NCBI GenBank assembly: GCA_964016885.1 | Contig: OZ024750.1 | Location: 3,720,001-3,784,000 of the forward strand | Reading direction: 5' to 3' | Source of the DNA: Eledone cirrhosa | Lineage: Eukaryota | Length of the DNA stretch: 64,000 bases | Shown: positions 15,301 through 62,035 of the stretch, piece by piece | How the letters are laid out: the number at the start of each line of letters is the position of its first letter | Numbering within the stretch: position 1 is the stretch's first letter | Notes under the pieces: generated by a model | The model's database searches: none | What the model was told of the DNA's origin: nothing | Seen by the model: only the letters and a program-made list of their open reading frames with translations | Program-made: the position numbers and the translations under genes

Positions 15301-18300
15301 TTAGGGCCTCCTAGAAAGTTATCTTCAGCTATAGTACTCCTATGTGGACGATTTCACAGAGAAATTTTTAAAAAATCAAATATAGTATATGTAAATGATC
15401 TTACCCAAACAGGTAAGCTAAACTAAGAAGATATTGTAAATATAGTTAGTTGTACTGAGAAGAGGAATTCACGATGGTGAAAATGATGTAAACATTTTTT
15501 GAACTGATCCTCATTGCCATTATTACAGAGCTAACTAAAGTAATTTTCAAGGCAAGAAATAAAAAACTGACATCTATAACCATGGCTTCTTCTTCTTGGC
15601 AGATATCTACTTCCATAGGCTGTGTTAAATCTGAAATGGCAATAAAATTCAACAATAAATTCATTTGTTCTAAATATCCTTTACATTTGACTGAAAAACA
15701 ATTTTAAAGAAGCAAGCATATATTTCTATACAATATATATTACACTAATTGACGTAACTAGCTTCACCCGAGTAAACAGATGATAAGGGAAGACAGGTAG
15801 AAAAGAAAACATGTATTGGATACATTTCATCCTCCTTGCAGAGGATGAAAGGCAAAGCTAACCTCGACAGGATTTGAACTCTGAACGTAAAGTGCTGTAA
15901 CTATATGCCACAAAACATAATGCCCGACACTCTACTGATACGACCAATCCACTGCCCTAAATAATAATTAATATACAATAACATCTTATGCATATTTCTA
16001 CATTTCAACAAGACTTTCCCCTAGATAGTACACCAGCCCATTACAAAGTTAATCCCAACTGCTACTAGTACTGTTTTTTTCCAGCTGAGTGAACTGGAGC
16101 AATTGAAGGACAACCATCCAAAACCAATTGTTTCTATGAATCAAAACCCATTTTAAAGGGTTTCTACTTGAATTAAAACCTTCCAACATAATTTTATAAA
16201 TGGACCTTTTGTAATGTTACAAATAACAGTGGTAAACTCTCAGGAGAGCTGGACAGCAGAAGGTCTTTAGAGAAGACACCCTCTTTCAAGCAAGAGTTTC
16301 TTAAACATCACAAAAAGTCCATATATAAAATTATTTTGGAAAGTTCTAATTTAAGTAAGAACCCTTTAAATGAAAACCTTCCAACATAATTTTATATATG
16401 GACCTTTTGTGATGTTACAAAGTTACAAATAACATATTTGAAATAATAATTTTAATAAATAATTTCCAAATTCTTCAATAATTTGAGAAATGCAATAACA
16501 ACAGAATTAAAGAAATGTCTTTGAAGATCAAAAATTTCCTCACCTTACAGATTAACTATATTGCAATAATGTAACTTAATATGGATAATAATAATCAATA
16601 TGCCTCAACATTTTCACTAAACTTGTTCAAATCAACAAAAAACTGTCAGTTCATACAATAGAATAATAACATTAAAACTATGATGTCTTACAAAGCTAAA
16701 GAATATTAACATGCGATGATGTCATAAAAGGTATGACAACCATGTCACATGACCACTTAAAAGGCTCTTTTAAATATGTATGCGTGTGTTGTGTGTGCTG
16801 CGTGTGCATGTGTGAATGCGTAAATATATAGTTTTATTTCTAAGATTGCAATTGCTCACTTTAAATGTGTTTGGTTTGTTTGAGAATGAGTTTGAAGAAG
16901 GTGTAAATGATGATAAATTATTTAATAGAACACTGAGTAATAATTGTTTCTACTTTTGGCACAAGGCCAGCAATTACTCTAGTACAATACTGGTGCTTTA
17001 TTTTATTAGTCCCATAAGAATGGGATTTGAACTCAGAAAGTAAAGGACCGTAGCTCTATGCTGCAAAGCATGGTGTCCGACGCTCTACCAATATGGTCAA
17101 TCCACTGCCCTACCTGAGTAATAATATACTGAAGGTATATAGAGGTGATAGTTTAAATAAGTCTGTTTTCATTGGTTCAGAAACCAATGAGGAAACCTCT
17201 ACATAGTCACTTAACTTTCTAGAAATAACAGCCAACTCTCTTACATCACACCATACTCTTTTAAAACTTTTTTGTTAGCATATATCTAATGAAAGATACT
17301 TGACTACAATTTTCAAGTATTTTTGCATGGCATCCTGGGCAAGTGCCATTTACCATACCTCAAGGCTACCCATACCTTGTTAAGAGAAACTGGGTAGAAG
17401 GTAACCATTTGGTACTTCGTCAGCTGGACTATAGCTGTAGTTCAAAGGGCTCTACTTGTCACATGCTGAAATGCTGAATCCCCATTAGATTTACATTAAG
17501 AGTACATGAGAGTCTGTGGAGTGCTCGGCCACTAGTATGTTAATTTCATGGACAGGCTGTTTGGTGCATCAAACAACTGGGAAGACACAATGTCAAAACC
17601 ATTGTAGTTGATATATAATTGACTATACTGTCAAAGGCAGTGCCCCAGCATGGCCATTACTAAATTCATGCAAATGTCCTCAAGGAACTAAGCAAGCCTG
17701 TATACTCTGTAAAGTGGCAGTGGTGGTGCCACACAAAATACACACCCTGTAAGGTGGTTGGCATTAGGAAATTAACATTGATATTGCTATACCAGAAACC
17801 CACCTTCTCGTGGACACAGGCTGAAGCTGAAGCATATATATAGAATGCACGGCCACCACACCCTCCCATACATCTTCCATGAGGACAGGCTGAAGCATAC
17901 ATCTAGTGAAGCCTCTAGCCCACACAGTAAAGTGGTCGTGATGGCGACACAACAAAAAGCACCCAACCCACACTGTAAAGTGGTCTTGTAGGTGTCATGA
18001 CAAAAGGCAATCATAGTTAATTCCCTTCTATATTATAGACTAGAATTATCTTTCTTGATTTTTATAAATGTTTACCTCATCATTGAGTGGTGTGTGATAT
18101 TCATATTTTTCCTAAAGGAATCAAACCCATATTATGATCGTAAATCCAACACCCTTACCAATAGGCCACATACCTCCACTTGTATTTCAAGATAGAAGTA
18201 AAATCTCTCTCAAGAAAACATTTATAAAATGTAATGTCTTTGCACATGAAACATCAGCTGTAACCATTTCAAAAAGCATAAACAAAACAAATGCTTACCT

Positions 18301-20905: not shown

Positions 20906-21027
20906 AAATGGTGAATTTACTGTTGTGGAACTACCTCTACCAAACTCCCCCCATGGACTGAGTGCTCTACTACTACGGATATAACCCAGCAGTGTTCTAC
21001 TTATATATATATATTATATATATCATC

Positions 21028-21187
21028 ATCATCATTTTATGTCCGCTTTTCCCCGCTTGCAAGGGTGGGACGGGTCTTATTCAGCACAGCATCTCTCCAC
21101 TTGTCACGGTCCTTGTAGAGAGATGCTGTGCTGAATAAGTCCCGTCCCACCCTTGCAAGCAGGGAAAAGCGGACATAAAATGATGAT
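21028..21187. repeat. Fold-back hairpin made of two RTE LINE 3' ends (~73-bp arms)
   Basis: Arms match the RTE 3' end at ~860-930; 14-nt loop; (TGA)n tails point outward into (TA)n. Confidence 0.9.
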
Positions 21188-21258
21188 ATATATATACACA
21201 TATATATATATTATGACTTGGCAAGCTATTTAGAACACTGGTTTAACCGCTTTACTTC

Positions 21259-21293: not shown

Positions 21294-21680
21294 ACATTTA
21301 AATAAATTTAAGGTAAAAGACTAATTGTCAACAATATCTTTTACATTTGCATTTTTTATTCTATGCCCATACCTGCATTGTTTTGGCTTTACAAATACAA
21401 ACGTTTATATATATGTCTAACGAATGCACTGGATGTTCCTTACAAGAATCTTCTAGTTTCTTGAAACCTTCGGTAATGAAATAATTATATTGTGTTGTTT
21501 ATTATGTAATTAAATAGCTCTGTACTTTACATAGAGCACTCTTCTTTCCTTTATCTTTTCTATGGAAATACTTAACATATATACATATATATATAAGTGG
21601 AAGGGATATTTAATTTGTTGGAAATTCAACAAATATAAATGTTTATAACTGATACAGAGATTTATAAAACACTCTTTGTA

Positions 21681-21738
21681 TTTTATCTGATAAAAGCGTA
21701 CCAAGGATTTTGGTACCCTTGAAATATATATAATAGAA
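21681..21738 (+). ncRNA. Hammerhead ribozyme, family A, core mutated (CTGATAA, G8A)
   Basis: ttttat-CTGATAA-AAGcGTACCAA-(ggatt)-TTGGTACcCTT-GAAA-T-ATAT-A-TA^-atagaa. Confidence 0.7.
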
Positions 21739-21787
21739 TAAATATGGTTTTATAAATAAAGTTTCCATTTATTTAATATCATTGATT

Positions 21788-21823
<36 letters not shown>

Positions 21824-22237: not shown

Positions 22238-22387
22238 TGGAAGGGATATTTAATATATATATATAAGTGGAAGGGATATTTAATTTGTTGGAAATTCAAC
22301 AAATATAAATGTTTATAACTGATTCAGAGGCACTGGACGGATTTCTGGAGTAAATATTCAATGATATTAAATAAATGGAAACTATAT

Positions 22388-22556
22388 AAGACATTCACAT
22401 AATCAAAATATGTTTTATTATATATATTTCGGAGGTACTGTGCTGTTTTTTCAGTACGTCCTCATCAGATAAAATATGAGGACGCACTGAAAAAAACAGC
22501 ACAGTACCTCCGAAATATATATAATAAAACATATATTTTGATTATGTGAATGTCTT
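22388..22556. repeat. Inverted repeat of a hammerhead-bearing element (10-nt spacer)
   Basis: 22388-22465 versus 22476-22556; the + copy lacks the CTG of the core. Confidence 0.88.
22413..22474 (-). ncRNA. Type I hammerhead ribozyme, family A, intact core
   Basis: Minus strand: ttttat-CTGATGA-GGAcGTACTG-(aaaaaacagca)-CAGTACcTCC-GAAA-T-ATAT-A-TA^-ataaaa; stems I-III all pair; cleavage triplet AUA. Confidence 0.82.
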
Positions 22557-22573
22557 CATTTATTAATATTTTG

Positions 22574-22637
<64 letters not shown>

Positions 22638-25289: not shown

Positions 25290-25995
25290 AATAATAATAA
25301 TTATAATGAAATTATTGTGTACAGTGCTCAGGTGCACTACAATTCATCAAAGGTGCATGTATAGTACATAGAATAATGTACAAATGTCAGGGAAGTGAAC
25401 AGTGTACGAGTCAGGAAATACATGTGTGCATGTGTATGGAGGGGGAATATTAGGTGTAATGTTGGCAAATCTCAGGAAGCATGGAGGTTTTAAAAGATGC
25501 AGTATCTCGACAACTAATAACTGATGCAGGTAGTTTGTTCCATGGAGGTTTTAAAGGATGCAGTATCTCGACAGCTAATAACTGATGCAGGTAGTTTGTT
25601 CCATGGAGGTTTTAAAAGATGCAGTGTCTCGACAGCTAATAACTGATGCAGGTAGTTTGTTCCATGGAGGTTTTAAAGGATGCAGTATCTCGACAGCTAA
25701 TAACTGATGCAGGTAGTTTGTTCCATGGAGGTTTTAAAAGATGCAGTGTCTCGACAGCTAATAACTGATGCAGGTAGTTTGTTCCATGGAGGTTTTAAAA
25801 GATGCAGTATCTCGACAGCTAATAACTGATGCAGGTAGTTTGTTCCATGGAGGTTTTAAAAGATGCAGTATCTCGACAGCTAATAACTGATGCAGGTAGT
25901 TTGTTCCATGGAGGTTTTAAAGGATGCAGTATCTCGACAGCTAATAACTGATGCAGGTAGTTTGTTCCATGCTTCAGCAACTCTGAGTGTGAAAA
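25290..25995 (-). mobile_element. CR1-group LINE 3' end with internal tandem amplification
   Basis: Minus strand reads FTLRVAEAWNKLPASVISCRDTASFKTSMLPEICQHYT*, with a (TTA)n-like tail. Confidence 0.7.
25480..25971. repeat. Minisatellite, 61-bp unit x8
   Basis: catggaggttttaaaRgatgcagtRtctcgacagctaataactgatgcaggtagtttgttc. Confidence 0.97.
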
Positions 25996-26459
25996 TGAAG
26001 TTTAATAATCATTTTCAAGTATTTTCAGTTCGATGCTATTTGTTGCTTATATACAGTATTTAGTTGACCTCATAGCAACATTCTGTGCTGTTTAGCTTAC
26101 TGGGAAAACTATTCAATTAATGATATCCTGTTGATGACAAACACGTTTTGCTTGCTTTATGGACTGGTTTGTCTATTTCCAGATTTCAAAAGTAAAACTA
26201 ATTCTAAGCATGAACACTTCATAGGTAAGCCAAGGACAAAATTTAAACCTTTCAGTTTTTGATATCTTCTGAAACTAGGTTCCTTCATCATTCAACTAAA
26301 GTTGATAGCAAATATTTGATAGAATATTTCGTTAAAGCCGTATCTCCCCACACCACAGAAAATGATAAGAAAATAAATCATCATCATCATCTTCGTTTAA
26401 TGTCCATCTTCCATGCTAGCATGGGTTAGACGGTCATTAATTCCTAAAAGGAGAGGACA

Positions 26460-30200: not shown

Positions 30201-30388
30201 GTAAGAGTTAAATGTTAAAGGAAATAAATTGAAATAATAATGACATTTCCATTTTTTTTTAATTTGATAATAGAAATATTTCAAAGGTCAAATGATAATG
30301 AAAGATTTTTTTGTTGAAAATCAGTGTAGTAGTAGCAGCAGCAGCAGCAGCAGCAGTATTAGAGTAAAGACTAGACTTCAATCAATGT

Positions 30389-30617
30389 TTAACCCTTTAG
30401 CATTTAAACTGGCCATATCTGGCCAGAATTCTCTTGCCTCTTTCTGTTCAAACTGGTTGTAACTGGCCACTCATACTGATGTTAAGGAATTGTTCTCAAA
30501 ATAAATAATATCAAAATCTCATAGCTTCAATATTATGTGAGTTAATTATGTGAGGTAAAGTTTTTACCATGAAAATATAATAGTACATATAGAGTAATGT
30601 AAATGCTAAAGGATTAA
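30389..30617. mobile_element. piggyBac-type MITE (TTAA-flanked, CCCTTTAGCATT TIR); copies at 12317-12510, 29831-30033, 31071-31299, 37523-37739, 60036-60254, partial 33473-33529
   Basis: TTAA|CCCTTTAGCATTTA ... TAAATGCTAAAGGG|TTAA ends with a shared ~220-bp interior. Confidence 0.8.
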
Positions 30618-31944
30618 TGTGATGCAGTTGTAGGGCTGTCTTATACTTTTCAAGAATATCTTGCTAATGTGGCTTCATGTGGTTTGTTAATTCAAATGTT
30701 TATAGTATCTTTACTAGTGGACAGATCATTGTAAAAACTTGCAGTATTAAAGTAATGATTTTGATTTTTTAATGTGATGCAGACGCAAAGTGCTGTTTTG
30801 TACATTTCAAAGAGAGCCCTACTAATGTGGTTTCATGTGGTACAGGATGTTAAGGCTTAAGTCGAAATCTAGAATATTTGTGCATTAGATATGAGTCGTA
30901 AAGTACTCCTGTAAATGTCTTTCTTGAGCTTTGTAAAGATTAAGTAACTGATCATAGCTGAAGTATTTCTTGGTTTTAAAAAGAAAAGGTAATAGATAAA
31001 CTTTTAGAGTAACTACAAGTCATTATTGCTGAAAACCAGGTGCAAGAGTGATAAGAACTCTGGGAACATGTTAACCCTTTAGCATTCACATTACTCTGTA
31101 CTTACTATTGTATTTTCACAGAAAAGACTTTACCTCACATAATTATCTAACATAATATTGAATCTATGAGATTTTGATATTATTTATTTTGAGAACAATA
31201 CCTTAACGTTGGTATGAGCGGCCAGTTATGAACTGTTTGAATAGAAAGAGGTGAGAGAATTCTGGCCGGATATGGCCGGTTTAAATACTAAAGGGTTAAA
31301 CTTGGTTTTATTCAACATGAAAGCTGGACACACTCTACATCTGGTCTCCCACAATGCTATGGCCACAACAAAAAAACGCACAAAGTACACCTTGTATGCT
31401 GAACAAATGCGCCCAGTCCATCCTGTAAGGCGGTTGTGTTTGCGACACAACAAAAAGCACCCAGTCAACCATGAAAGATGGTTGAGCTAGTGACACGACA
31501 AAAAACGCCCTGTACACCCTGCAAGAAGGTCGTATTGGTGCCACTACAAAAGGCACCTAGTCTACATTGTAACGTAGTTGGCGTTAGAAAGGGCAACCAA
31601 GCCAAAATACAGTTCCATATGAACATATGACGTGGTTTCTCGATCTGATTTGTCTCATAACATGACAACCCGTCTAACTGGTGCAGGAGTGGAAAAATAG
31701 AGGTTAAATGATGATGATGACTCATTTCGCATGTGTGTGTTTGTGTGTAAATATCCCATAAGTAAGACTTTATTTAAACATCAATTTAATAATGAAAGCT
31801 GTCTAATTTAAGAGACACCTGGTATATTGATTAGAAAATGTAATCAGCGCTTTATGGGACGCCCTCTTGCGGATGTTGAATATGAAGGGTGTGAAAACAA
31901 GGGGAAGTAAGTAGTGTTGCCGGCGATCAGTGAGTCGCTCGACA

Positions 31945-36471: not shown

Positions 36472-38991
36472 ATGAATTACAATTTCACCTTGGTCAATCA
36501 AGATTAGAGTAAGCAGTTGATGATAAGACCACAATATTCCTGAAACTATAGCCTAGTTAATGTCTCTTTTTTTATTCATGGTGAAATTGTATAAACAAAG
36601 ACAACTGCTTACGACTGTCCAGTGAATTTAATCAATTTTAATTTGTGTACACATTCAATAACAGCTTAAATCTAGATGTTTATTCTGTAGTGAATCATAT
36701 ATTGATTTCTAAATCAGTCATAATAGTTTCAATTCTAAAAGGTGGTAATGTTCATGTATAAAGAAGCTGTTACTAGGAGATATAATTTTAACAGAAAAAT
36801 TAGATTGAATTAAATATCTTTAGTAAGTTTCCCATTTTTATGATAGAAAGTAACTGTGACAGGTGCATGTGTAACTTAACCCTTTTCATTACTCTATTTC
36901 TAATGAAAGACCGTTACCTATGTTAGTCAAATAATTTTGGAAAGATTTTCTAATATAACTAACTTTCCAGTTAAACTGGTGTTTGGAAGATAACTTAAAA
37001 AAGATTCTTATAATTATAATGATTTCTACTACAAACACAAAGCCAGCAATTTGTGGGGAGGGGAAAGTTGATTAAAGTGACCCCAGTGCATTACTGGTAG
37101 TTTATTTTATCGACCCTGTAAGGATGAAAAACAAAGCTAACCTTGGTGGAATTTGAACTCAGAACATACAGGGACGTAACTCTATGCTGCAAAACATGGC
37201 ATCCAATGCTATACCGATGCTGCCAAGATTTTTAATAATATAATAAATAAATATAAACAGTTAAAAACAATCAGCTTTATATTATAGAACCAGGGGTGGG
37301 TTTCAGACTGTTCAGTAAGGAAGGGTTGATAGTGTCAGTATTTTTTTTGGAGTGAATTCCTGACTCTGGAAAAGAAGAAACATAGCCTTTGTGATGGAAT
37401 CTGTGTAATTGTTATGAAAGGTCACCAAACATTTATGAGTGCTATGGGAGTGATTGTGATGGTTTTTGCTGTGTTGTTGAAATCAAAGGATTTTATGTAT
37501 CTATATTTTACTTTCTTTTAATTTAACTCTTTACCATTCACATTACTCTATATTTGCTATTGTATTTTCACAGTAAAGGTTTTACCTCACATAATATCAA
37601 ATCTATGAGATTTTGATATTATTTATTTTGAGAACATTACCTTAACATTAGTATGAACAGCTGGTTATGGCTGGTTTGAACAGAAAGAAGTGAGAGAATT
37701 CTGGGCATATATGGCCAGTTTAAATGCTAAAGAGTTTAAGGTATGAATGATAACTAAATCATTTTAAAAATAATATTTACTGCCAGCCATATGAAATATG
37801 CAGAGGCGCATGGCCTAGTGGTAAGGATGTTGGACTTATGATCATAATGTTGTGGGTTTGATACCTGGGCTGAGTGGTCTGTAGTGTTCTTGAGTAAAAC
37901 ACTTCACTTCATGTTGCTCCAGTATACTCAGCTGAAAATGAGTACCAGCAGTAGCTGGGGGTTTAACCCTGTGATGGACTGGCATCCTGTCCAGGGGGAA
38001 GTCTTGTACTCTCAGTCACTTCACACCATGAAACCGGGATAAACATCGGCCTAACGAGCCTTAAATGGCTTAAAACAGACTTTAGACTTTAGAATGATTT
38101 ATCTACTCATACAGTTTTATGGACTCTGATATTCTGTCTTAGGATGGGGAAGGGGTAAGGAAGGCCAGATCTGGCTGTATGGGAAAGTAGAGGCTATAAA
38201 ATACTATAAAAGACATACTTTAGACATATGAAATTAAGGCTTCTAGTCAAATATAGATACATTTAGACTATCATATAGTTAACAGATGTGAACAGTAATT
38301 TGAATAGGAGTAAGCTGGGCCTGATAGAGAAACCATTAGATTAATATATTTCAGGATGAAAAAGCAGCCATATAAATGTTGATAATGGAAATAGTTTTCT
38401 CCAAATTCTTTTCTTCATGCTATTAACAGTTTCTCTTGGGATTTCACTGTTTCTATTGAAATTCTCAGTTTCTCAGCTTTATTTTAAATCTGACTTCTTA
38501 AGCCCACTTATTTCCATTATCTACCTTTATAAATCAACTTATGACAGGTTTGAAGAAGATAAATTTGTATTTATTTTGGCAAATATATTTTATTATATTT
38601 TGTTACAACTCTGCTTTCAATCTTTGTCATAAAACAGTTCTTACTGCTGAGAAGTTTTAACCTCTGGTGTTTGATTACTTGAGATTAACTGAGGTCATGT
38701 ATTTTAACTAAAAGTTATATATATATATATTTATATCATCATCATCATCTTTGTTTAACGTCCATCTTCCACGCTAGCATATATATATATATATATATAA
38801 TTATGTAATAAACAACATAAGACAATTATTCCATTTACCAAAGGTTTCATGAAGACAGACGAGCTCAACAGAGACGTCTGAAATCCCTCATCAGAATGAA
38901 ATAATTGTCTTTTGTTGTTTATTACATAATTAAATAGCTCTGTAGCATACATAGAGCACTCTCCTATCCTTTACCCTTCCTACGGAAATAC

Positions 38992-39025
<34 letters not shown>

Positions 39026-39678
39026 GAAGTTCTATTTAAATTGTTGGGATACAACAAGCAAATATTTTTATAACTGATATAAAGCACTCAACAAATTATT
39101 GGAGTAAAAATACGATATATTAACAAATGGAAACTATATTTATAAAACCATATTTATTTCATTATACATATTTCAAGGACACCAAGTTAAATTATGGTGT
39201 GCTTTCATCAGATAAAATATAATATAGATCAGTTTTATAAATTAATATTGACATACCCTTAAAGAATGCGACCATTTCTGTTGGAAGCTCCCAGATAGTG
39301 GGGTTATTAAATTTATTTATTGTATTATGCAAATTAGTGTCGGATATGTTTAAATCACAGTAGATTTAAAATAAGCCGTTGGGGTATGGAGAAAGGGAAA
39401 GAAAAGAAAGAGAAAAAAGAGAAAAACGGCTTATTTTAAATCTACTGTGATTTAAACATATCCGACACTAATTTGCATAATAGAATAAATAAATTTAATA
39501 ACCCCACTATCCGGGAGCTTCCAACAGAAATGGTCGCATTCTTTAAGGGTATGTCAATATTTATTTATGAAAACGGATCTATATTATATTTTATCTGATG
39601 AAAGCACACCATAATTTAACTTGGTGTCCTTGAAATATGTATAATGAAATAAATATAGTTTCCATTTGTTAATATATC

Positions 39679-39740
<62 letters not shown>

Positions 39741-42700
39741 TATTGTGTGTATCTAGTTTAGAATATGAGGGCTGGCTAAAATGGTCATAGGCTGACCAAG
39801 AAACTCTCATGGAAGGACCAAATGAGGTTTATTTTTCAACATAGTCTCTGGAAAGAAACAATGCAGTCATTAATAAATGCATGCAAGATTTCACAGCTCT
39901 AGCATCTATTCTTCATAGTCAGCCTATGAACTTTTCAGCCGACCCTCATAGGTACATCATATTCCTGCATGTAGTAAGAAATGGCTAGAAGGGTTGGTGC
40001 CAGCGCATTCAATTGTCAAAACAAACTGTGATGTATATAAAAAGTGTGAGGAGGCCTACTAGCATAGGTTGAGTTGTGTGTTATGTTCTTGAGCACCAGA
40101 AATAGCTGGAGGTTTACCCCTGCAATGGACTGGCATCCGGTCCAGGGGAAGAGTCTTGTACTCTCAGTTGCTTCACGCCATGAAATTTTATATACAGTAT
40201 TTATTTTCATAAATTCTCTACTGGTTTCAATCATTAGACTGAGGTAAGCTGGGATATCACCTTGCAGTTTTTTTTTATCTTTTTTTGTCAATTGTATGAA
40301 TCCCAGTGCTTACTATATCAATCTCTATTTGTTGACTTGAATATAAACAAGCACTGTCAAATGTTAAGCAGTGTCAACATAGATACAAATTTACACTCGT
40401 TTTCTGTCAACTAAATTTCATCTGAAAGTCATTAATTATCTGAAGGCTGTGTGGTATGTAGCCAACACCATGTATGTGTGTAGGTATTTCATCATCATCA
40501 TCATCATCATCATCGTTTAACGTCCATCTTATACGCTAGCATGGGTTAGACAGGTTTGTCCCATTTAGAGGCGAGTTGGGTCAGGTGACTGTGTGTCGCT
40601 CATATAGGACTGTTTTATGTATAGTTATAAAACTATATTTGTTTTACCCTCATAGATATTGACTGAGAGTGTGTCAGGGGTGGGTGAAGTGTTATTGCTA
40701 TCCCATAGAAGTAGCCAGTCCTGTAGATAAGATCATTCATTGATAAAAATAATAATTTTTTTACTATGAAATACTAAAAAATATTCTTTCATAATTATCA
40801 CAGCACACAACATAGCTAAGATCATTTAACCCTTTAGTTACCAACCCAGCCAAAACCAGTTCTGATTCTATGAAATAAAACCACCCATTTTATAGGTTTC
40901 CAATTTAAATTAAAATCTTTCAATATAATTTTATATAAGAACCTTACATTAAGTTACTATCTTAGTAATGAAATAATTAATAATTTTAGTAAATCCCTTG
41001 AGATTCTTCATTAATTAATTAAAGTGTATTTCATTAGAAATGTGGTCATAAAAGGGTTATGTAAAGCGAAAGTCACAGTACACAACATAGGATTGTTTAA
41101 CAAGATTGTTTAACGAGGAAATAAAAATTAGATTAGTGTGAGATCATAATTAATATTTATAACCCTAACCTTAATATACTTAATGCATATTATCTTATTT
41201 TATGTATTTTATAAAGCTTACTTAATCTTGCTGCAAAATATTGTGGGTTTATAATCTCAAGTATTTTTGGTAATCCATAAAATGATAACTCTGCAACCAG
41301 TTTCAAGATGTAATTGGTTGGCTCTGTGTAACTGTTGTATAGCTTATCAAAAATAGATTAGTACTATGAATAAACAACCTGTATTGTACAGTTGCAGGTG
41401 AAGGGATAATAGATTTTTAACAAGATAAAATTATATTGGATTACCTTAATGCTGGTATGAGTGGCTGGTTACAGCTGGTTTGAATAGAAAGAGGTGAGAG
41501 AATTCTGGCTGGATATGGTCAGTTTAAATGCAATTTACAGAGTGTACTGGGTGTATTTTATTAATTGTTATCAGTCTGAACAAAATTTAGGTTGGTTTGT
41601 ATTTTTGATATCATTTTTTGTTTGTTTATATTTCTTCACTTACAGATGTGGAAGCGTCTTTCGCAAATGCAACGCAGTGTCATTGTGTTGGTGCTGCTGT
41701 TGGGTGTCCTCTCGGCATTGTATATAATTCCTGTTATCCAGCTAGAGAGGACCAAAAACAAAGAAATGACTGAACTGCTCAAGAAGAAGGAATCATTTTT
41801 CCAGTCTCAAAGCAAGTTGCTGCGTTCCAAACTGCTCAATGAATTAGAACAACAAAACAAAGCAAAACAACAGATAAATGAAATACAGGTAAGTAATATA
41901 CCTTATTCCTCCTTCCTCTCCTCTCTTGCTCCTTCCCTCTCACTCTCCTTTCCACCCTCTCTCACTCCTTCCCTCTATACGGTGGCAACAAGGTGGACGT
42001 GTGATCTCCAATATATCTCTCAATATCAGAGCTGTGATCTCTCAATATCAGAGCTGTGATCTCTCAATATCAGAGCTGTGATCTCTCAATATCAGAGCTG
42101 TGATCTCTCAATATCAGAGCTGTGATCTCTCAATATCAGAGCTGTGATCTCTCAATATCAGAGCTGTGATCTCTCAATATCAGAGCTGTGATCTCTCAAT
42201 ATCAAAGCTGTGATCTCTAATATCAGAGCTTTGATCTCTAATATCAAAGCTGTGATCTCTAATATCAGAGCTGTGATATCTAATATCAAATCTGTGATCT
42301 CTCAATTTCGGGAAGATCTCTGATCTACACTTTCTATCTATCAAATAACATTACTCCAATGACCCTTGTATTCACATTAGTTATAAAAAAAATATGACAT
42401 CCACTAGCAGAAGAACTTGAATCAAGCCAATGGTGATTCATACTAGATACTGAGATGAAAGAATGTCATATCTACAGTCAGGAGCAAAAGATTTCATTAA
42501 GTGGAAGATCCAGTAACACCAGATACACGTATCAATACACAATTGAAACTTAGTTTCTACTCTAGATACAACGAAATAATCAATAAACATTTCATGAGTT
42601 TGCAAAGTTGATCTCAAACTCCTCCTTTTGTAGCAGATAACTCTTGTAAAGAAGTCTAGGGCATTAATCAGTTATTGATTATATCTGAAACTATGAAAAG

Positions 42701-45700
42701 TCAAGTGGTTAACCTCATTGATTGTATTTACATGAAGTAAAGGAAAGGTTACATAAAACTGTAAAATAACATTTTGAATTAAATATATATATTCTAGCAT
42801 GGAAAATGGATATTAAACGATGATGATGATGATGATTTAATTCATGTGTATATATACATGCACACACACACATTTATATTTGGAAATTAGTTGTGCCATT
42901 CAGCAAACCAAAAGGGCCACATGCAACTCACAGGCCTCAGTTGGCCCATGACTGAAGTAGAGACTCCCTTGTTAGTTATAATATTTGACTGATGAGGGAT
43001 ATGCTGTTGGGTTATTAGCATCCCCCTTCAAGGTGCAAAGTCTTGAGGGCTCTCTCGAGAGAGAGCTGGTCCTATCTGTCAAGAAGCTGGGCTCCGACTG
43101 TGGGTTCAGCCCATATGAAATAAGTATGCAATGAAAAGGGTGTGTGTTTATGTTTAATCTACTCCCAGGAGGATTATCAGCATCTATAACTATTGCAGAC
43201 TGGTGAAGGCTGGTCCCATCTGTTGAGAAGATCGGCTCCTACTGTGGAATCAACCCGTATGAAATAACTATTGAAATCAGCTAAATAGCCTTTTACAGGA
43301 TGTTGTCTAAAATTTGTGTATAGTATATAGTACGAATAATAATTTAATATAGGTCATTATAGTAACCACACTATCTTATACATGTGTGTGTCTGAATAAT
43401 AATTTAATATAGGTCATTATAGTAACCACACTATCTTATACATGTGTGTGTCTGAATAATAATTTAATATAGGTCATTATAGTAACCACACTATCTTATA
43501 CATGTGTGTGTCTGAATAATAATTTAATATAGGTCATTATAGTAACCACACTATCTTATACATGTGTGTGTCTGAATAATAATTTAATATAGGTCATTAT
43601 AGTAACCACACTATCTTATACATGTGTGTGTCTGAATAATAATTTAATATAGGTCATTATAGTAACCACACTATCTTATACATGTGTGTGTCTGAATAAT
43701 AATTTAATATAGGTCATTATAGTAACCACACTATCTTATACATGTGTGTGTCTGAATAATAATTTAATATAGGTCATTATAGTAACCACACTATCTTATA
43801 CATGTGTGTGTCTGAATAATAATTTAATATAGGTCATTATAGTAACCACACTATCTTATACATGTGTGTGTCTGAATAATAATTTAATATAGGTCATTAT
43901 AGTAACCACACTATCTTATACATGTGTGTGTCTGAATAATAATTTAATATAGGTCATTATAGTAACCACACTATCTTATACATGTGTGTGTCTGAATAAT
44001 AATTTAATATAGGTCATTATAGTAACCACACTATCTTATACATGTGTGTGTCTGAATAATAATTTAATATAGGTCATTATAGTAACCACACTATCTTATA
44101 CATGTGTGTGTCTGAATAATAATTTAATATAGGTCATTATAGTAACCACACTATCTTATACATGTGTGTGTCTGAATAATAATTTAATATAGGTCATTAT
44201 AGTAACCACACTATCTTATACATGTGTGTGTCTGAATAATAATTTAATATAGGTCATTATAGTAACCACACTATCTTATACATGTGTGTGTCTGAATAAT
44301 AATTTAATATAGGTCATTATAGTAACCACACTATCTTATACATGTGTGTGTCTGAATAATAATTTAATATAGGTCATTATAGTAACCACACTATCTTATA
44401 CATGTGTGTGTCTGAATAATAATTTAATATAGGTCATTATAGTAACCACACTATCTTATACATGTGTGTGTCTGAATAATAATTTAATATAGGTCATTAT
44501 AGTAACCACACTATCTTATACATGTGTGTGTCTGAATAATAATCTAATATAGGTCATTATAGTAACCACACTATCTTATACATGTGTGTGTCTGAATAAT
44601 AATCTAATATAGGTGACACTTGTGATTTGTAGAGTCAGTAACTGTTCATGGCTGAGCTGTTTTCTAGACTTTGAGAAGTACATGTGTAATGATGTCGACT
44701 TGTGGAAACTATGAATAATTGTTTCTACTTTTGGCACAAGGCTAGCAATTACCCCAGTGCATTACTGGTACTTTACTTTATCGACCTCGTAAGGATGAAA
44801 GGTAAAGTTAACCTCGGCGGATTTGAGCTCAGAACGCAAAGGGCCATAACTATACTGCAAAGCATGGTGTCCGACGCTCTACCGATACTGCCAAACCTAT
44901 GAATAATGATCATCAGACATTATGAAGCCTAATATTTATTACAACATTAGTTGAGGTTGGGCGGAGCAGACATGTACAAGGTGTAGTCTACTTCCTTGTT
45001 AAATGTAAGGATTCTATGTTGGTGTAATTCAATAACATTAAATTCTCATGGCCACATTGGAGGATGTTTCAAGGTCTTTTTTTCCCCCTAGGATTAATGG
45101 GGAAATCATCATCATCATCATCGTCATCATCATCATTATCATCATCGTTATCATCGTCATTATTTTTATGTCCGTTTTTCCACACTTATATGGGTTGAAT
45201 ACAGATGATGCCTTTTGCTGCAGATTAAGCAGGGTTGAAGAATGGTATGATCTGTGGGGAAGTGTTTTTGATTAGAAATAAATCAGTAAGCAGATCATTG
45301 ATCACCATCATCATCATTATCATTGCCATTTTCACGTCTCCACTCTTCAATGTTTGTATGGGTTGGACAGGTCTTCTTCGAAACAGTGTCTCACCACTTG
45401 TGCTCTTTTTATTTTTCATCTCCTTTGTGTAGGTTCAGCACTCCGAGATCAGCTTTCACCACTTCTGCCTCTGACTTCTTTGGTTTTCCTCTTCAATAAC
45501 TTCTTTCTACTAGGAACTCCTGGCACATCTTTACCCAACTGTCGTCATCCTTGCTTTTATTAGCAATCTTCTTTCTTTTATACAACGTCCAACCCCTCTT
45601 GTACTTGGCTTTTCTCTTGGTTCACTTGTGATTTATAGAAAAGAAAAAAGTGTCAGTATTGTGTGTATTTTGGAATAATTTGTATAATGGAGAGTTATTG

Positions 45701-49098: not shown

Positions 49099-52000
49099 AT
49101 ATTTATATGTATATATGTATATATGTATGTGTGCGTATATATATCAGATTGGAGGAGGTAAAAACCAGTTAGACCATTACTCACCAGAGTACTTGATACT
49201 TGGGTTTGGATCGAAACGGTCGGAGCTCAGGCGTTGGGGACCTGAATTTTTTTCATATATATATACATATATATAAAATCTCTCTCCCCCCCCCCCCCCC
49301 CAAAAAACAATTGTTGGCCTTGTGCCTAAATCAGAAGCCATTATTCTGACAATTCATTTTGTTGCATTCTCATTATTTGTTTATTCTGTGATTTCCAGTT
49401 CCTAAATCTAAGTCCAAAAGGCAGTTGTTTGTGATTAATGCCTTCAAACATGCCTGGAAAGCTTATCAAGAATATGCTTGGGGTCACGACGAATTGAGGC
49501 CAGTTGCAAAAGCATACCATGACTGGTTTGGAGTTGGACTGACCATGGTTGATGCGTTAGATACAATGTATATTATGGGTCTTAATGAAGGTAAGCTCTT
49601 CACAGTTTCATGTTTTCTTATTTTTTTTATAATCATTATATTTATATGATTATAATCATTGTATTTTAGTACATAGCCTTCTTCTTCTCCTCCTCCTCCT
49701 TGTTAAATTTTCTTACTTTCAATTATTCTCTTATATATATATATGCATGTGTATTTTTTGTTTGTATTCTTTCGTTTAGAATTCAGTGAAGCTCGCAACT
49801 GGGTAGAGAAACACATGCTGTTAGATATAAACCAGGATGTGAATTTATTTGAAATAACTATTCGTATTCTTGGAGGCTTACTAAGTGCCTATCACCTGTC
49901 TGGAGATGAAGTGTTCAAGCAGAAAGCTGTAAGAATTTATACTTTAATTCATGTTTTTAACTATCTGCATCATCACCATCATCATCACAATTATCATCAT
50001 CATCAGCAGCATCGCCATCATCATTTTATATTTATTTTCCGGGCTGGACAGTTCATCATGATTCAAAACAAAAAAATAGGTTGGATAACCTTGTTCATTT
50101 GTTTCATATTTTGGTATGATTTCTATGGCTTTCTTTTCTTCTTATTACCAACAACTTTACAGAGTGTACTGTGTGCATGTTATCATAGCATCACCACTAC
50201 AACTATATAGAGTGAACTAAGTAGATTTTATTATGGCACCAACACTAGAAAAGTTGTCATGTGCTCAATAAATCTGAAGAGTTTCTCTGTTCTACACTGG
50301 CTTCAACACTTGAGAAGTTGTCAAATTCTTGACAAGACCAAAAGGCCTTTCTACTCATTGACTCAGTTCATTGATCAACCATTTGACAGGGCCTGGCTAC
50401 CTACTGAGCACATTCTATTGTGACATCAACTTTAGAGGGGTTATCCCATCCACTGCAGGTTAAAAGGGATAATAATTTGGAGTGGGGGACTATGCAAAGC
50501 ATTTAAGAAATATAACATGGATTAACAACAAACATTTTAAGGCTATTTCCCCTGCTAAGCAGGGTTTAGCTTTACAAGTAGCCCTGAGACAAACCTCATA
50601 TTCATCATGGGATCCTCTGAAGCAATGTTTTACAGTTGGATGACTTTTCTGGCACCAACCCTTTTAGTTGCCTCTAATGACACACAGGGATATAATGTGT
50701 TTTAAACTGGATATACACAGCAAATAAAATGGATTAACATATAACAGAAATGGCATTTATAGTATGATTTCTCTACATACTTCCATAACCATTGTTTCCA
50801 GAACTCTCGCAGTCTCAACTGTAGCTGTTTGTTTTGTTCATTTTTTCCAGAAAGAACTTGGAGATCGATTAATGCCTTGCTTTGATTCCCCTTCTAAGAT
50901 CCCATACTCAGATGTTAATTTAAAGACAAAAAAAGCTCATCCTCCTCGCTGGGGCCCAGACAGCACTACCTCTGAAGTAACAACAATACAACTTGAATTT
51001 AGAGATCTAAGTCGAATTCTCAATGATCCAAAATATGAGGTTTGTATATTTTCTTTTTACATACATAACAAAATAATAAACATTTAAAAAAAAGAATTAC
51101 AAAGGAAGATTGTGCTTGTATAAACATAATATTTACAGTAACACTAACATGGTGGGATTTATAATAGAGGTGTATATGAAGGAATATACAATATATTTCT
51201 GTATAATAAATCTATATAAGTTTCACTATGACTGAAGCAGTGATCATGTCACAACTATCTCAGTTGCCGTGTGAGAATGCCAGACATTAATGTTTCAGGA
51301 TGCTTTATCCCTCATCAGTGATACTCAGTTGGTACTGAGGCTAGAATAAGCTATAGCTTATATACTTTTTTACATATATTCTTAATCGATAGACAAGTTC
51401 CCAGACCTCATTCACTTACTGAGTCGGATGGAAACTCGTCAAATGGAACCAAGGAAACAATGTTTCCATTGGTATTTCCATTGCTAATACTAGCTATACT
51501 ATAATAATTTTATTTTACATTAAAAAAAAACATTATATATAACAAAAAAAGAACATTACAAGAAATCCCATATTTACGAATGTACACTATACAATTACCA
51601 ATTCCCCAATCATAAGAATTTAAGCTTATTCCAATCCCTCCTTATTATTTGGGACCCAAGACTAACTATTATTTTTGTGTTTTCATACATAAACATAGCA
51701 ACAACAACAAAACAAAACAAACATTTAGATAATTCAATTTAATTCAATATTTATTTCAAATGTGTGCGGTATGACATGTAATTTGAGAAAAATTCACAAA
51801 TTCTGAATATATTATAATACAATACAATTACCACTAAATATACGGATATGCTATATATATATATATTCATTCAAATATTAACAAAAATAGAACTTCATTG
51901 TGATCAAGTATATTTTATTATACATATTTCAGAGGTACTGAGCTAACTTCAACAGTACGTCCTCATCAGATAAAATAAGATGATGCATGACATACACTGA

Positions 52001-55000
52001 CATAGTAGATGGTTAAGATCCAGTCATGGATATGTAGCGGTTGTCTCCCTTGTTTTGATTGGGATCTAGACGGGAAGTGGAACCCTTTCTGCAACTTCCG
52101 GTCAGAGCCCTATAAAACTAACAACTTTAAGCTTCCTTTCTCTCTTTGCCTTTTTGGCACCAGGTCAAGAGCCTCTCATTTGGCTCTGCCATTAATTTGG
52201 CCAACAGGCGCCTGGCCTTAGCCAGGCGTCCTCTGCCAGCCGCGTTTGCCTGGCAATCAAAACGGTAACTACTAACTTTGTTTCATTCTAACATCTATCT
52301 TTGACATGTCAAGTATACTATCTACCATTGTTAATTAAATATTATACACCAAACCATGTATTCCTTGTTACATTCATACAACCCAGTATCCTCGCTATAG
52401 ATATATATATATGATATGTGATTTTTAAATCACAGATAAAAACCTGATTGTTTATTTTAATTTTTCTCTCCCTAGATGGCAGCAAGTGAAGTCTCTAGCC
52501 ATATTCATCGGCAACCTAAAAAAGATGGTTTAGTACCAATATTTATCAATGCTCAAACTGGTATTTTTCGAAACACGGCTACAATCACACTTGGTGCACG
52601 AGGTGATAGTTACTATGAATATCTACTGAAACAATGGTTACAAACAGGAAAAACTAACAATACGTATGTTAACATATATCTTTATTCTACGAGGGTCGGC
52701 TGAAAGATTCATAGACTGACCAAGAAACTCTCATGGAATGACCAAATGAGGTTTATTTTTTAACATACTCCCTGGAAAGAAACAATGTAGTTATTAATAA
52801 GACAAGTTGAAATTAATGCATGCAAGATTTCACAGCTCTAACATAACTCCTTCATAGTCAGACTGTGAACTTTTTAGCCCACCCTTGTAAAATTCATTGC
52901 ATATGAAATCTGTTCTGTATGTAATCTTCATGGAGGAAATACTGTAATGGTTTAATGGTTTCTCTGGTTAAAAATGACAAGTTCCATGTAATAAATCCCT
53001 ACAATAGAGTTACATTTAAAATGACAGCCCAGTCCCTGGACCAATTTCACTTCCCATTTCTAGCCATTTCATTTAGTATTTGGTGAAGTATGAAGGGCAC
53101 TTATGTTGCTTACCACCATTCTTATTATCACTGTTTAATGTCTATTTTCCATGCTTGAATGGGTTAGACGGTTGTCGTGTACTAAGGTCTGACTGATTAA
53201 GTGACTAGATCCTGCTCATATGCTTAGTTTTGGTTTGGTTTTTACTGCCAGATGGATGCCCTTCCTAACACCAACCACTTTACAGAGTGTACTGGGAGCA
53301 TGGTTTCTATGGCTGGATATCCTTCCTAACACCAACCACTTTACAGAGTGTACTGGGAGCATGGTTTCTATGGCTGGATGTCTTTCCTAACACCAACCAC
53401 ATTACAGAGTGTACTGGGAGCATGGTTTCTATGGCTGGATATCCTTCCTAACACCAACCACTTTACAGAGTGTACTGGGAGCATGGTTTCTATGGCTGGA
53501 TGTCCTTCCTAACACCAACCACATTACAGAGTGTACTGGGAGCATGGTTTCTATGGCTGGATGTCCTTCCTAACACCAACCACTTTACAGAGTGTACTGG
53601 GAGCATGGTTTCTATGGCTGGATGTCCTTCCTAACACCAACCACTTTACAGTGTGTTCTGCTTATTGCAAAACAACCAGCCAGAGCGCCACATTTACTCT
53701 CTCTTATAAATCTGAGTTGAGGTTGATAAAAACAAGTACCAGTCTAGTACTGGGGTTGATTCTTCATTTATATCTCTTTGTCACTTCCACTCTCTCTCTC
53801 ACATTCTATCCTTCTCTGGAAGGAATCTGCTGTGTTCAGACCTGGAGAGGAATAGGCTCCACAAGGTTTATGCCACTATGGCACCCCTGTGACTCCACCA
53901 GGGATTACAGGACCATGCATAAATCTGGGATCTTTTGTCTATGTCAGGAATCAGTTACTATTGTTCTATAAATAATACCTTTATACTTAAATTAATGTCT
54001 GATGTTCAATTTATTTAATACAAATTACTGAAAATATATATATATATATATTTTTTTTCAAATTCTGTTTCTCAACAGTTTCAAGGATGATTACTTAGAA
54101 GCTGTTAAAGGAATGCAGCTTCACCTCTTGAAGATGTCAGAGCCTAGCAAACTAGTGTATTTGGGAGAATTGCTTGGTGGTCGACATTTCAGTCCAAAAA
54201 TGGTAAGCTGTTGTGTGCTGTATAATATTTTGTTTTTGCTTCATAAGATATTGATTTAGTTCAGTGATGTTACAAACATCTCAATCTGATGGAAATGGTT
54301 GATTCAGCAAGGTTAATAGTACAATTTCTTTTGGTTGATGTTCATGTATAATTCCCATGGAGTGACTGTTTTACTGCAGTGTTTGAGGGTCAGCTGAAAA
54401 GCCTTATTTTTACACAATTTCCTTATTTGATCTTTCTTATTTATTGTCATTGCTTCACACATCTGGCACTGTACAGTTGAAGAAACATTTATGTTTTTAT
54501 ATTTACTAAGACAGTTATTCCTTTGAACTCCTCCCATTTGCTTAATCACAGATATGGATCCATTAGTTAGTTCTCCTCAATATATTATCTAAACCTTAAA
54601 TCTATTTTTGGTAATATTCTTCAGAATCTCTTTAGACTGTTTCACTTTGTATGTATAGCGTATGGTCCTTTCTCTGATTCTGGTGAACTTTAAGGATTTT
54701 TTTTTACCCATTAATACTCTGGTCTTAGTTTCATCCATATCTAGGTTCTGAAATTTGAACACCTTCTTCTAGGTTTCAAACTTCCAAAGTTTCTATATTG
54801 ATTCATCATTAAGAATCATTCATCTGTATATAGACACTCCCATTGACAATTTATTGAGAGTTCTGTAATGGATAAACACCCAATCTCAATGTATTCTTTC
54901 AGCTCCTTATTCATATCAATTACTCATTTCCACATAATTTTGTCCTTCCCCACCAGATTACACACCTTGTCTTCCCTACATCAACAAATTTAAGGTAAAT

Positions 55001-58817: not shown

Positions 58818-61145
58818 GCAAAATAACTCCCCTCTCTGCTTCCCAAGCTTTAACAAACTGAGCTGAATGTTTTACATACCTTGTTGGTTTGGTCCATTAG
58901 AGGAACTTGGTGGACCCCAATAGTAATATGGAATACACACACACACTGAAAGGGGTTGACCGATGTGAAATGAGGTTTTAATCATTTTGTGCACCCACAT
59001 ATCTGAGAAGACACAAAATCATTGTGAATTTCTTTTTGTTTTTACACCTTATTTGAGCATTAAAACCAAGTGGTTTGTGTGTGTATTGATGAAACCAGCT
59101 ATTAAAGTAACTGCTTCTAGTAATTCTTATAACTAAACATTAATGTATAAATTTCAGCTGCTTTTTGTATGGTTTATTGTTTCTTCTCTCTATATCAACT
59201 TGTTATGCTTAGTGCAAGATATATAATATTTGGAAATATAGAAATAATAAGAGATTATACTGACTGGGGTGGGGTGGGTTGGAGGGGGAGAAGGATCTAT
59301 ATTTTAAAATGCAGGAATTGATTGCAATATAATATTTCTAAAAGGTTTCTTCATATAAGGTAACTTACTTGCTTATCTAATGTGGTGTGAATGTTAACTA
59401 ATCATGTATTTGGGGTTATTACTGTGACGAGAACCACCTATGTCATGTACTTTACATATTCCATCCTTATTCTCAATAATTCCTGATAAATCAAATTTTC
59501 TGGAGGTTTTTTTTTTTATTTTGTTCTTCCTTAATCTCCAGTAAAGCTGTCCAGTAATAAATAATAGAATATAATGGACAAAATCCCCCATCCACTTCAA
59601 TCGATCTTCCTGCAAGTTCTTCTTCGCTAGAATTTATCGAGAAAACCATCATGAAAACCCAGTTAATGGATTCAAGATACTCATGTATATGTTTTCTCAC
59701 TTGCTTCACTGGGGGGAAAGATAGAGGATTTGCTTGTGGTTTATTGCATGCTGGTCTTTTGATTCAGCTGAAGCCAAAGAAATTAGGGATTTAGAACCTT
59801 TCATAATGTGATACCTTCCATAATTCTTTCAGTTGAATTTATTGTAATTCTATCTTTGAAATGAATTTTTATTTTATTTTATTATTGTTGCTTACTACTG
59901 AAGTATACCAGTTATTAACTGTCCCACAAGTATTTAATACCGAGGGAGCTTCTATGTAGTTATTTGATTTGCCAGAAATAGCAGCCAAGTACCCATCAGA
60001 TTGCATCCTACTGTCAAGTTAAGAGAGGACATTGCTTAACCTTTCAGCATTTACAATACTCTATATTTACTATTGTATTTTTGTGGTAAAGGCTTTACCT
60101 TACATAATTATCTCACATAATATCAAATCTATGAGATTTTGATATTATTTATTTTGAGAACCATACATTAACATCAGTATGAGCAGCCGGTTATGGCCTG
60201 TTTGTACAGAAAGAGGTGAGAGAATTCTGGACGGTTTAAATGCTAAAGGGTTAATGCTGTTCTACATACTCCTAAAGACAGGATGGTCATGGCTGGGATA
60301 TCTTTAATCATAAGTCTGCTTGATCAGGTTTGACTTATAAAGATATGCAAGTATGCTATATAACAGCTATTTAACTCCATTCTTATTTATCAAAAGTAAA
60401 TATTTCTTATAATATGGATGGAGAATGTATTCATACAATGAAACTAACCTAAAACTAGTCATCTGGTTCTACATAGCTAGATACCCAATATAGTAATAAC
60501 ATTTCAATATCATATATATACATGTATGTGTGTGTATATGTAATGTGTATATATATATATGTGTGTGTATATATATATATGTGTGTGTGTGTATATATAT
60601 ATATGTCTATGTATATAAATTTGTGAAAACAAATGAGTTCAGGCAATAAAATTTACTTTTTGTAACAAAATTGATTTGTCTCGTGTATTTTTTTTATTTT
60701 AACATTTTTAAAACCAATTTGCTTGAGACCACTTTTACCGAAGTGTTCATATTTAAATTCCAGAGGTCAACTTTGTCCATGGTGGATAAAATAAAGGGCA
60801 CTACAAAGCTATTAGCTGTCAGTCGAAGCAGCTGATGAAAGCAAAACATTGTTTATTTCTGTATTACTACCACGCGTAAGTGGAGTTACTTAATAGAATT
60901 TTTTTTTTTTTTTTCACGCGTTTTTTATTTTTTTTTTTATTAAAGCATATAGATGTAAGTGGAGTTACTTAAATGAAAATATAGGTGGCCCTTAAAAGGG
61001 CCAAATTAGAATATACCGCTGCGTTTTTACTAGTTACACACACACATATATATATATATACACACACGGTGTCCCCTCCAAAATATATACACACTTTGAT
61101 TACTTTGCTGTTGAAGTGTGTATACATTTTTTGGGACACTGTGTT

Positions 61146-61970: not shown

Positions 61971-62035
61971 AATATCAGTTTCTATTTATTAATATATTGT
62001 ATATATGTGTATGTATGTATATATATATATATATA

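What the first reader, a model, noticed from the sequence alone, without database searches (positions are those of the whole stretch)
38799..38995. Inversion junction that falls at a hammerhead cleavage site
Seen: a + strand element copy begins at 38895 (aatgaaataattgtc..), which is the sequence directly after the GUA cleavage triplet in the related copy at 21463-21570. It is fused to a minus-strand copy that starts at the CUGAUGA core, producing inverted arms 38799-38835 and 38895-38931. Inference: reverse transcription ran to the self-cleaved 5' end, then switched template through stem I complementarity. This would be a footprint of ribozyme-defined RNA ends creating PLE inverted terminal repeats.
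Basis: partly seen in the sequence, partly recalled or inferred. Interest (0 to 1): 0.7.

Follow-up and report, generated by a model that had tools for sequence, protein, structure and literature searches.

The report
Penelope stump joined at hammerhead stem
Two short mirror-image pieces of a common repeat, likely the end of a Penelope-like jumping gene, are fused head to head through the 8 self-complementary bases that form one arm of its predicted self-cutting hammerhead RNA, so the join touches the predicted cut site simply because of the ribozyme's shape and does not show that the RNA was ever cut.

Summary
The sequence is as described: arms 38799-38835 and 38895-38931 match at 35 of 37 bases and enclose a minus-strand type I hammerhead core, with the predicted cut between 38836 and 38835. 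In other family copies the match runs on past the supposed junction to 38902. So 38895-38902 is both the native 5' strand of stem I and the first 8 bases after the cut site. The join lies somewhere in that 8-base overlap. Any join guided by stem I must touch the cut site, so the coincidence is not independent evidence of cleavage. The overlap is unlikely by chance (0.13% of random joins), so stem I pairing probably guided the join. The inverted arm reads through its own cut site, as do the family copies seen. Three further head-to-head insertions of a second hammerhead family in the window join elsewhere. The layout is known Penelope-like architecture: an inverted truncated copy, a tail at one end, a (TA)n target. 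Best reading: antisense cDNA from uncut RNA annealed through stem I. Cleavage-guided switching remains possible but is unshown. Ordinary, with a modest mechanistic hint.

The parts
38780..38799 (.). Left (TA)10 tract, the likely insertion target
   Evidence: Sequence
38799..38835 (-). Left arm: the 37 bases after the predicted cut site of the minus-strand copy, ending at the short 3' end
   Evidence: Other copies also stop near here and run into (TA)n: RAD reads joined at 38929 (3 reads) and 38936 (3+3 reads), table 5c
38836..38848 (-). Hammerhead GAAA, stem III (3 pairs, 3-base loop) and GUA triplet; predicted cut between 38836 and 38835
   Evidence: The loop differs among this copy, the copy at 21463 and the X1 loose-end consensus, while CC/GG is kept
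38849..38887 (-). Stem II region; this copy has a G-A mismatch at the second closing pair
   Evidence: The family-majority letters at 38886 (9442 of 9780 depth in X1; 250 of 272 reads in X21) and 38850 (67469 of 72064; 478 of 549) would make that pair C-G; that both letters sit on one molecule was not shown
38888..38894 (-). Hammerhead core CUGAUGA
38895..38902 (.). 8-base overlap holding the junction: stem I 5' strand of the minus copy and the first 8 bases after the cut site of the plus copy
   Evidence: X4 pieces 9 and 10 end at 38902 and 38901; X1 contigs with family letters at 38867, 38871 and 38886 reach no further than 38902-38903; overlap statistics
38903..38931 (+). Right arm, sense copy of the bases after stem I
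38932..38994 (+). 63-base tail present at this end only
   Evidence: also present in the copy at 21475-21575
38995..39022 (.). Right (AT)n tract, shared with the neighbouring insertion
   Evidence: Sequence
39023..39680 (.). Neighbouring head-to-head insertion of a second hammerhead family (cores at 39211 minus and 39595 plus; tail 39023-39110 at the left end only; join in 39381-39424). Used as a control
21458..21575 (+). Related plain copy of the first family: GAAA, stem III, triplet, downstream bases and tail; no recognisable CUGAUGA or stem I 5' strand upstream

Best explanation
This is a 196-base head-to-head fusion of two truncated copies of a high-copy hammerhead-bearing repeat between two (TA)n tracts, likely the end of a Penelope-like element, and it was most likely made during insertion when antisense cDNA copied from uncut RNA annealed through the two complementary strands of stem I. 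Shown: the arms, the core, the 8-base overlap, the one-sided tail, the (TA)n flanks and the high copy number. Inferred steps: (1) the element's enzyme nicks (TA)n and copies RNA from an internal start 37 or 100 bases past the cut site; (2) the cDNA passes through the uncut hammerhead and stops at or beyond the outer edge of stem I; (3) its 3' end now carries the complement of the stem I 5' strand, so it pairs with the complement of the 3' strand, either on itself (snap-back, one tail later trimmed) or on a second cDNA primed on the other target strand; (4) fill-in fixes the inverted arm. Cleavage is not needed at any step. The join touches the cut site because stem I begins there.
For: The overlap is 8 bases; 8 or more occur in 0.13% of random joins, and stem I is the only non-palindromic inverted match of 7 or more bases in the 166 known bases. 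Native copies stop matching at 38902-38903, so the long arms are not the normal element. The left arm is continuous across the cut site. Both arms share T at 38930, where 1344 of 1530 X21 reads have C (X1: about half), which fits one template and one event. The A/G arm mismatch at 38899 is what a switch on the outer side of the overlap predicts, if the template had a G-U pair there (inference). A one-sided tail and (TA)n flanks are also seen in the insertions at 39023-39680 and 22264-22575. This architecture is described for Penelope-like elements, including a 15-base overlap of the inverted copy and self-priming on an antisense template (PMC3846280; PMC8557442). Internal start sites, nicking and extension of both strands, and no need for cleavage were shown in vitro (PMC11167929).
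Against: One locus cannot show when the join was made. At least one X1 contig has G at 38899 with 31 or more aligned letters on each side: a fused form with matching arms exists, which weakens the mismatch argument and fits a switch next to the cut site equally well. If the template had G there, the exact overlap was only 3-4 bases plus a mismatch. No coding sequence is linked to this family in the window, so the Penelope assignment rests on architecture. No whole genome was available, so breakpoints could not be counted across the family.
Confidence: 0.62

Rival explanations
1. One reading: reverse transcriptase ran off the 5' end of a self-cleaved RNA, and the cDNA end then paired through stem I with an antisense strand of an uncut copy and was extended through the core.
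For: The overlap includes the first base after the triplet. The family-majority letters give a plausible hammerhead. A fused contig with G at 38899 fits a switch at the inner side of the overlap.
Against: The coincidence is forced by stem I geometry. The model needs two templates, one cut and one uncut, plus an antisense acceptor. Copies seen read through the cut site. 0 of 3 other inversions in the window and 0 of 6 listed strand-switch joints in the second family lie at its cut site (15 of 26 joints were shown; their orientation is not given, and RAD fold-back artefacts are possible). The assembled arms differ at 38899. In Anolis, cleavage was dispensable and left no RNA ends (PMC11167929).
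Confidence: 0.16
2. The insertion first had a longer head-to-head palindrome, like its neighbour at 39023-39680, and a later DNA deletion through the 8-base microhomology collapsed it to the present form.
For: Longer palindromes of the sister family lie next door. Microhomology-mediated deletions are reported as common in Penelope copies (PMC3846280). The end product would be identical.
Against: No longer allele was seen. The neighbouring palindrome has survived with near-identical arms. The model needs an extra event.
Confidence: 0.15
3. There is no junction: either the element natively has a 37-pair stem I, or the fusion is an assembly artefact.
For: The stretch folds as a clean hammerhead with a 37-pair stem I.
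Against: Contigs with family letters at 38867 (55 contigs), 38871 (75) and 38886 (84) end by 38902-38903, and 67 contigs carry the direct-orientation GAAA-stem III before 38895. At least one X1 contig spans the join with 31 or more letters on each side, so the fused form exists outside the assembly.
Confidence: 0.05

Closest known systems
Head-to-head insertions of endonuclease-bearing Penelope-like elements with inverted pseudo-LTR and tail (Arkhipova et al. 2013, PMC3846280; Craig et al. 2021, PMC8557442)
   Same: Inverted 5'-truncated copy fused head to head, short overlap at the junction (15 bases in Pen2a_Av), extension at one end only, self-priming on an antisense strand proposed.
   Different: Here both copies are stumps with no coding sequence, the tail is 63 rather than 30-40 bases, and the overlap is identified as hammerhead stem I. 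PMC3846280 does not contain the words hammerhead or ribozyme.
Hydra-clade Penelope-like elements (Craig et al. 2021, section 11)
   Same: (TA)n target and a hammerhead with all three stems. A truncated coding copy at 62035-63160 has the CxCX5C linker, and its two long homologues inspected have RWK/RWR and DKT motifs.
   Different: No sequence link between that coding copy and this hammerhead family was found, so the clade assignment of the family is circumstantial.
Type I hammerheads of Penelope-like elements (Cervera and de la Pena 2014, PMC4209133)
   Same: Conserved core, long stem II, short stem III, location in the element's terminal part.
   Different: Stem II closes with G-U rather than the usual G-C, this copy has a mismatch next to it, and loop 3 is not palindromic. 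Cleavage was not tested. No Rfam hammerhead model matched.
Poseidon element of Anolis (PAc) in vitro (Frangieh et al. 2024, PMC11167929)
   Same: Two alternative 3' ends that differ by a tail downstream of the hammerhead, and an AT-rich target.
   Different: A different clade. The parts of the paper read (1-2 of 4) do not treat inverted junctions.
Twin priming of LINE-1 inversions
   Same: Two cDNAs primed on opposite target strands and joined by microhomology would give an inversion.
   Different: In LINE-1 the two pieces come from different parts of the RNA; here the same bases are copied twice.

Membership tests
Type I hammerhead ribozyme | Core CUGANGA, GAAA and UH in the right order | tested here: met
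   38894-38888, 38848-38845 and 38837-38836 on the minus strand
Type I hammerhead ribozyme | Stem I flanking the core and the cut site | tested here: met
   8 native pairs with one G-U; native extent to 38902 from other copies
Type I hammerhead ribozyme | Stem II closing directly on the core | tested here: inconclusive
   This copy failed my descriptor because of a G-A mismatch; the descriptor found 4 other cores in the window and 1 in 40 shuffled windows. The family-majority letters would restore the pair
Type I hammerhead ribozyme | Stem III | tested here: met
   3 pairs with a 3-base loop; the loop varies while the pairs are kept
Type I hammerhead ribozyme | Match to an Rfam hammerhead model | tested here: not met
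   None among 34 matches or 19 matches; the 4 descriptor-positive cores of the second family were missed as well
Type I hammerhead ribozyme | Self-cleavage at the predicted site | not testable with these tools
   Needs an in vitro assay or mapping of RNA ends
Endonuclease-bearing Penelope-like element | Head-to-head inverted truncated copy with a tail at one end | tested here: met
Endonuclease-bearing Penelope-like element | Hammerhead in the terminal part | tested here: met
   Motif present; activity untested
Endonuclease-bearing Penelope-like element | Reverse transcriptase and GIY-YIG reading frame linked to this family | tested here: inconclusive
   tblastn with the 24 homologues longer than 500 aa hit only 62035-63181; no genome available
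Endonuclease-bearing Penelope-like element | Target-site duplication | tested here: inconclusive
   Both flanks are (TA)n, so a duplication cannot be told
Hydra clade | (TA)n target | tested here: met
   not unique to this clade
Hydra clade | RWK, DKT and CxCX5C motifs in the element's own protein | not testable with these tools
   The family's own protein is not in the window
Non-LTR retrozyme | Head-to-tail tandem units, each with a hammerhead | tested here: not met
   No same-direction tandem of this family in the window; other loci not testable

The most novel reading that the evidence does not exclude
Hammerhead stem I works as a built-in turnaround signal at the DNA level: cDNA ends at the outer edge of stem I and snaps onto the complement of the other strand. 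The ribozyme's fold, not its chemistry, would then make a sizeable share of Penelope inverted repeats, and this could help explain why poorly cutting hammerheads are kept in these elements.
Probability: 0.15. Interest if true: 0.55.

Novelty: new member of a known kind. Interest (0 to 1): 0.24.

Why it matters
How Penelope-like elements make their inverted repeats, and what their hammerheads do, are open questions (PMC8557442). This locus names a concrete, testable source of junction microhomology: stem I. It also shows a trap: a join through stem I always looks like a join at the cut site, so such junctions cannot be used as footprints of cleavage in living cells. As a single junction out of four in the window it does not settle a mechanism.

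Tried and rejected
Whole-genome search: no genome is held for this window, so the breakpoint census could not be run. Rfam: no hammerhead match in the window or at the locus. An exact-pattern scan for more family copies found 0 in metagenome contigs and 0 in viral contigs. No RNA holder was listed among 23 runs; this says nothing on expression. Read-end piles in run X21 looked like preferred breakpoints, but 6 of the 6 shown (38903, 38928, 39039, 39193, 39310, 39313) sit on AATT sites, so they are most likely RAD library ends and were dropped. Tail-to-tail pairing of the two families across (TA)n (38995/39023, 21575/21595, and X21 reads) was considered as one composite element and set aside: head-to-head insertions into a shared (TA)n target face tails outward anyway (inference). 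A word-index protein search with the GIY-YIG region found nothing; the full HMMER search with the upstream frame found 1296 relatives. Pfam gave only a weak GIY-YIG hit in 1 of 6 long homologues and no reverse-transcriptase hit. Earlier-findings look-ups by place, by sequence and by a long word list returned nothing. Paper searches listed no title tying Penelope inverted junctions to hammerhead stem I; the library is open-access only, and I read only parts of seven papers and no supplements.

Full report
What is there. The window is AT-rich animal-type DNA with introns of a GH47 mannosidase gene on the plus strand (exon at about 49776-49946). No whole genome is held. The finding spans 38799-38994 between two (TA)n tracts. 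The arms 38799-38835 and 38895-38931 are complementary at 35 of 37 bases. Between them the minus strand carries CUGAUGA, a long stem II, GAAA, a 3-pair stem III and a GUA triplet, with the predicted cut between 38836 and 38835. The plus arm runs on for 63 more bases, and 38895-39079 matches 21475-21654 at 80%.

Is it a hammerhead? Rfam has no hammerhead match (34 and 19 matches listed). My descriptor found 4 cores in the window, all of a second family, against 1 in 40 shuffled windows. It missed this copy because the second pair of stem II is G-A. In four public runs laid on 38700-39420 at 80% likeness, the repeat is abundant (8751 records in X1). The majority letters at 38886 (9442 of 9780 depth in X1; 250 of 272 reads in X21) and 38850 (67469 of 72064; 478 of 549) would turn that mismatch into a C-G pair. 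In the second family the base of stem II covaries among window copies: AAG/CUU, GGA/UCC, GGA/UCU. The motif is therefore a credible Penelope-type hammerhead of the kind in PMC4209133 (parts 1-2 of 4 read), somewhat decayed in this copy. Cleavage is untested.

Where is the junction? In a type I hammerhead the bases before CUGAUGA pair with the bases after the cut. The complement of the 5' strand therefore starts at the cut site by definition; 8 of 10 bases match in this way in 4 of 4 copies of the second family. So the question is how far native copies match past 38894. Two X4 pieces run 38810-38902 and 38810-38901 (24 of 10103 pieces were shown). X1 contigs with family letters at 38867 (55 contigs), 38871 (75) and 38886 (84) have largest end distances of 36, 33 and 17, all of which put the right-hand limit at 38902-38903. 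I read that column as distance to the end of the aligned part, which fits X4 piece 9 (inference). From the other side, 67 X1 contigs and 3 X5 contigs that start at 38895 carry loose letters whose consensus ends in GAAACC-3 nt-GGTA (agreement 0.64 and 0.77; 24 of 674 loose-end rows shown). Thus the native element has an 8-pair stem I, the long arms are a rearrangement, and 38895-38902 belongs equally to both copies. The join can be read as 'sense copy starts at the cut site' or as 'antisense copy ends at the outer edge of stem I'; the sequence cannot tell these apart.

Is the overlap chance? Over all breakpoint pairs in the 166 known bases, an exact overlap of 8 or more occurs in 0.13%. Stem I is the only non-palindromic inverted match of 7 or more bases. 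The junction was picked after the fact from four in the window, but pairing still probably guided it. One base could place the switch: the left arm has G and the right arm A at 38831/38899. An outer switch predicts this if the template had a G-U pair there. Against that, family copies carry either letter (G in 27142 of 59433 depth in X1), and at least one X1 contig has G with 31 or more aligned letters on both sides. That contig shows the fused form exists outside the assembly, but it leaves the switch point open.

Controls in the window. A second hammerhead family forms three more head-to-head insertions. 39023-39680 joins at 39381-39424, at least 170 bases upstream of the core. 22264-22575 joins between the stem I 5' strand and the inside of the core. 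21595-21790 joins a tail fragment to a point 27 bases upstream of the core. None lies at the cut site (39163/39162 in the first). Six strand-switch joints listed for that family are scattered from 39061 to 39275, none with the stem I signature; 15 of 26 joints were shown, orientation is not given, and some may be library artefacts. The read-end piles of the RAD run coincide with AATT sites in 6 of 6 shown and were discarded. The left arm of the finding, the copy at 21463 and the X1 consensus all read through the cut site, so uncut RNA is a normal template.

Comparison with print. Inverted 5'-truncated copies and a 30-40 base tail at one end are described as typical (PMC8557442, 12 passages and section 11 read). 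Adineta copies show a 15-base overlap at the inverted junction, and self-priming on an antisense template was proposed (PMC3846280, passages read). In vitro, the Anolis element nicks and extends both strands, starts at two internal sites that define the tail, and inserts equally well with a dead hammerhead; no RNA-seq reads ended at the cut site (PMC11167929, parts 1-2 of 4 read). I also saw part 1 of 5 of bioRxiv 10.64898/2026.07.22.740005 and passages of PMC6155905 and PMC6431247; they add background only. Supplements were not opened; file S2 of PMC8557442 and figure S2 of PMC11167929 may bear on the clade assignment and on RNA ends. A truncated coding copy at 62035-63160 has Hydra-clade marks, and that clade favours (TA)n, but nothing links it to this family directly.

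Earlier AI notes on other genomes reached similar views: the cut site mildly or not favoured, and copies ending at the outer edge of the motif. I did not check them and do not count them as support. One suggested that the outer edge is the RNA start, which shaped the novel case. In this window the antisense copies at 38902 and at about 22476 end at that edge, and the copy at 51969 stops matching the 39211 copy there. The last two are weak, because their native upstream sequence is unknown.

Verdict. A real but ordinary Penelope-like stump insertion. Most likely (0.62) the join was made at insertion by antisense cDNA pairing through stem I, with no cleavage. Cleavage-guided switching (0.16) and later deletion of a longer palindrome (0.15) remain open; a native long stem or an artefact is unlikely (0.05). 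Interest 0.24.

Noticed in passing
window 39023-39680, 22264-22575, 21595-21790, 51850-51977: A second, more abundant hammerhead family with covarying stem II and a near-palindromic stem III. Three head-to-head insertions and one plain copy. Run X5 shows a subfamily whose core differs at the variable seventh position.
   Followed up: partly
window 22469-22487 and 51970-51987: The bases upstream of stem I in the 51969 copy resemble the complement of the core (7 of 10 match the inverted arm of the 22468 copy). The 22468 join may use a native imperfect inverted repeat, or the 51969 copy may be a decayed inversion.
   Followed up: partly
window 62035-63160: 5'-truncated, frameshifted coding copy of a Penelope-like element with Hydra-clade motifs and an asparagine-rich linker, starting right after a (TA)n tract that follows a short end of the second hammerhead family (61971-62002).
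   Followed up: partly
window 41646-41888 and 49776-49946: Exons of a class I alpha-1,2-mannosidase (GH47) gene on the plus strand; the first follows a splice acceptor, so an earlier exon should exist. If it lies upstream of 39595, the plus-strand hammerhead there would be in the host pre-mRNA in sense.
   Followed up: partly
window 6193-6427, 21019-21196, 781-1694, 30380-31308: Several other palindromic or inverted repeat insertions of different repeat families, without a hammerhead by my descriptor.
   Followed up: no
window 39157 (run X4): Six contigs stop matching inside the stem I 3' strand of the second family and go on with A/T-rich letters; not the signature of a stem I join, unexplained.
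   Followed up: no
window 18222-19253 minus strand: A long lysine- and glutamate-rich open frame with no Pfam match, probably a host exon.
   Followed up: partly
window 43214-44773, 8435-9312, 25358-26089, 53192-53740: Tandem arrays with units of 60, 46, 61 and 61 bases.
   Followed up: no
window 60963-61007 minus strand: Match to the histone 3' stem-loop model at its gathering score (34 bits); no histone gene looked for.
   Followed up: no
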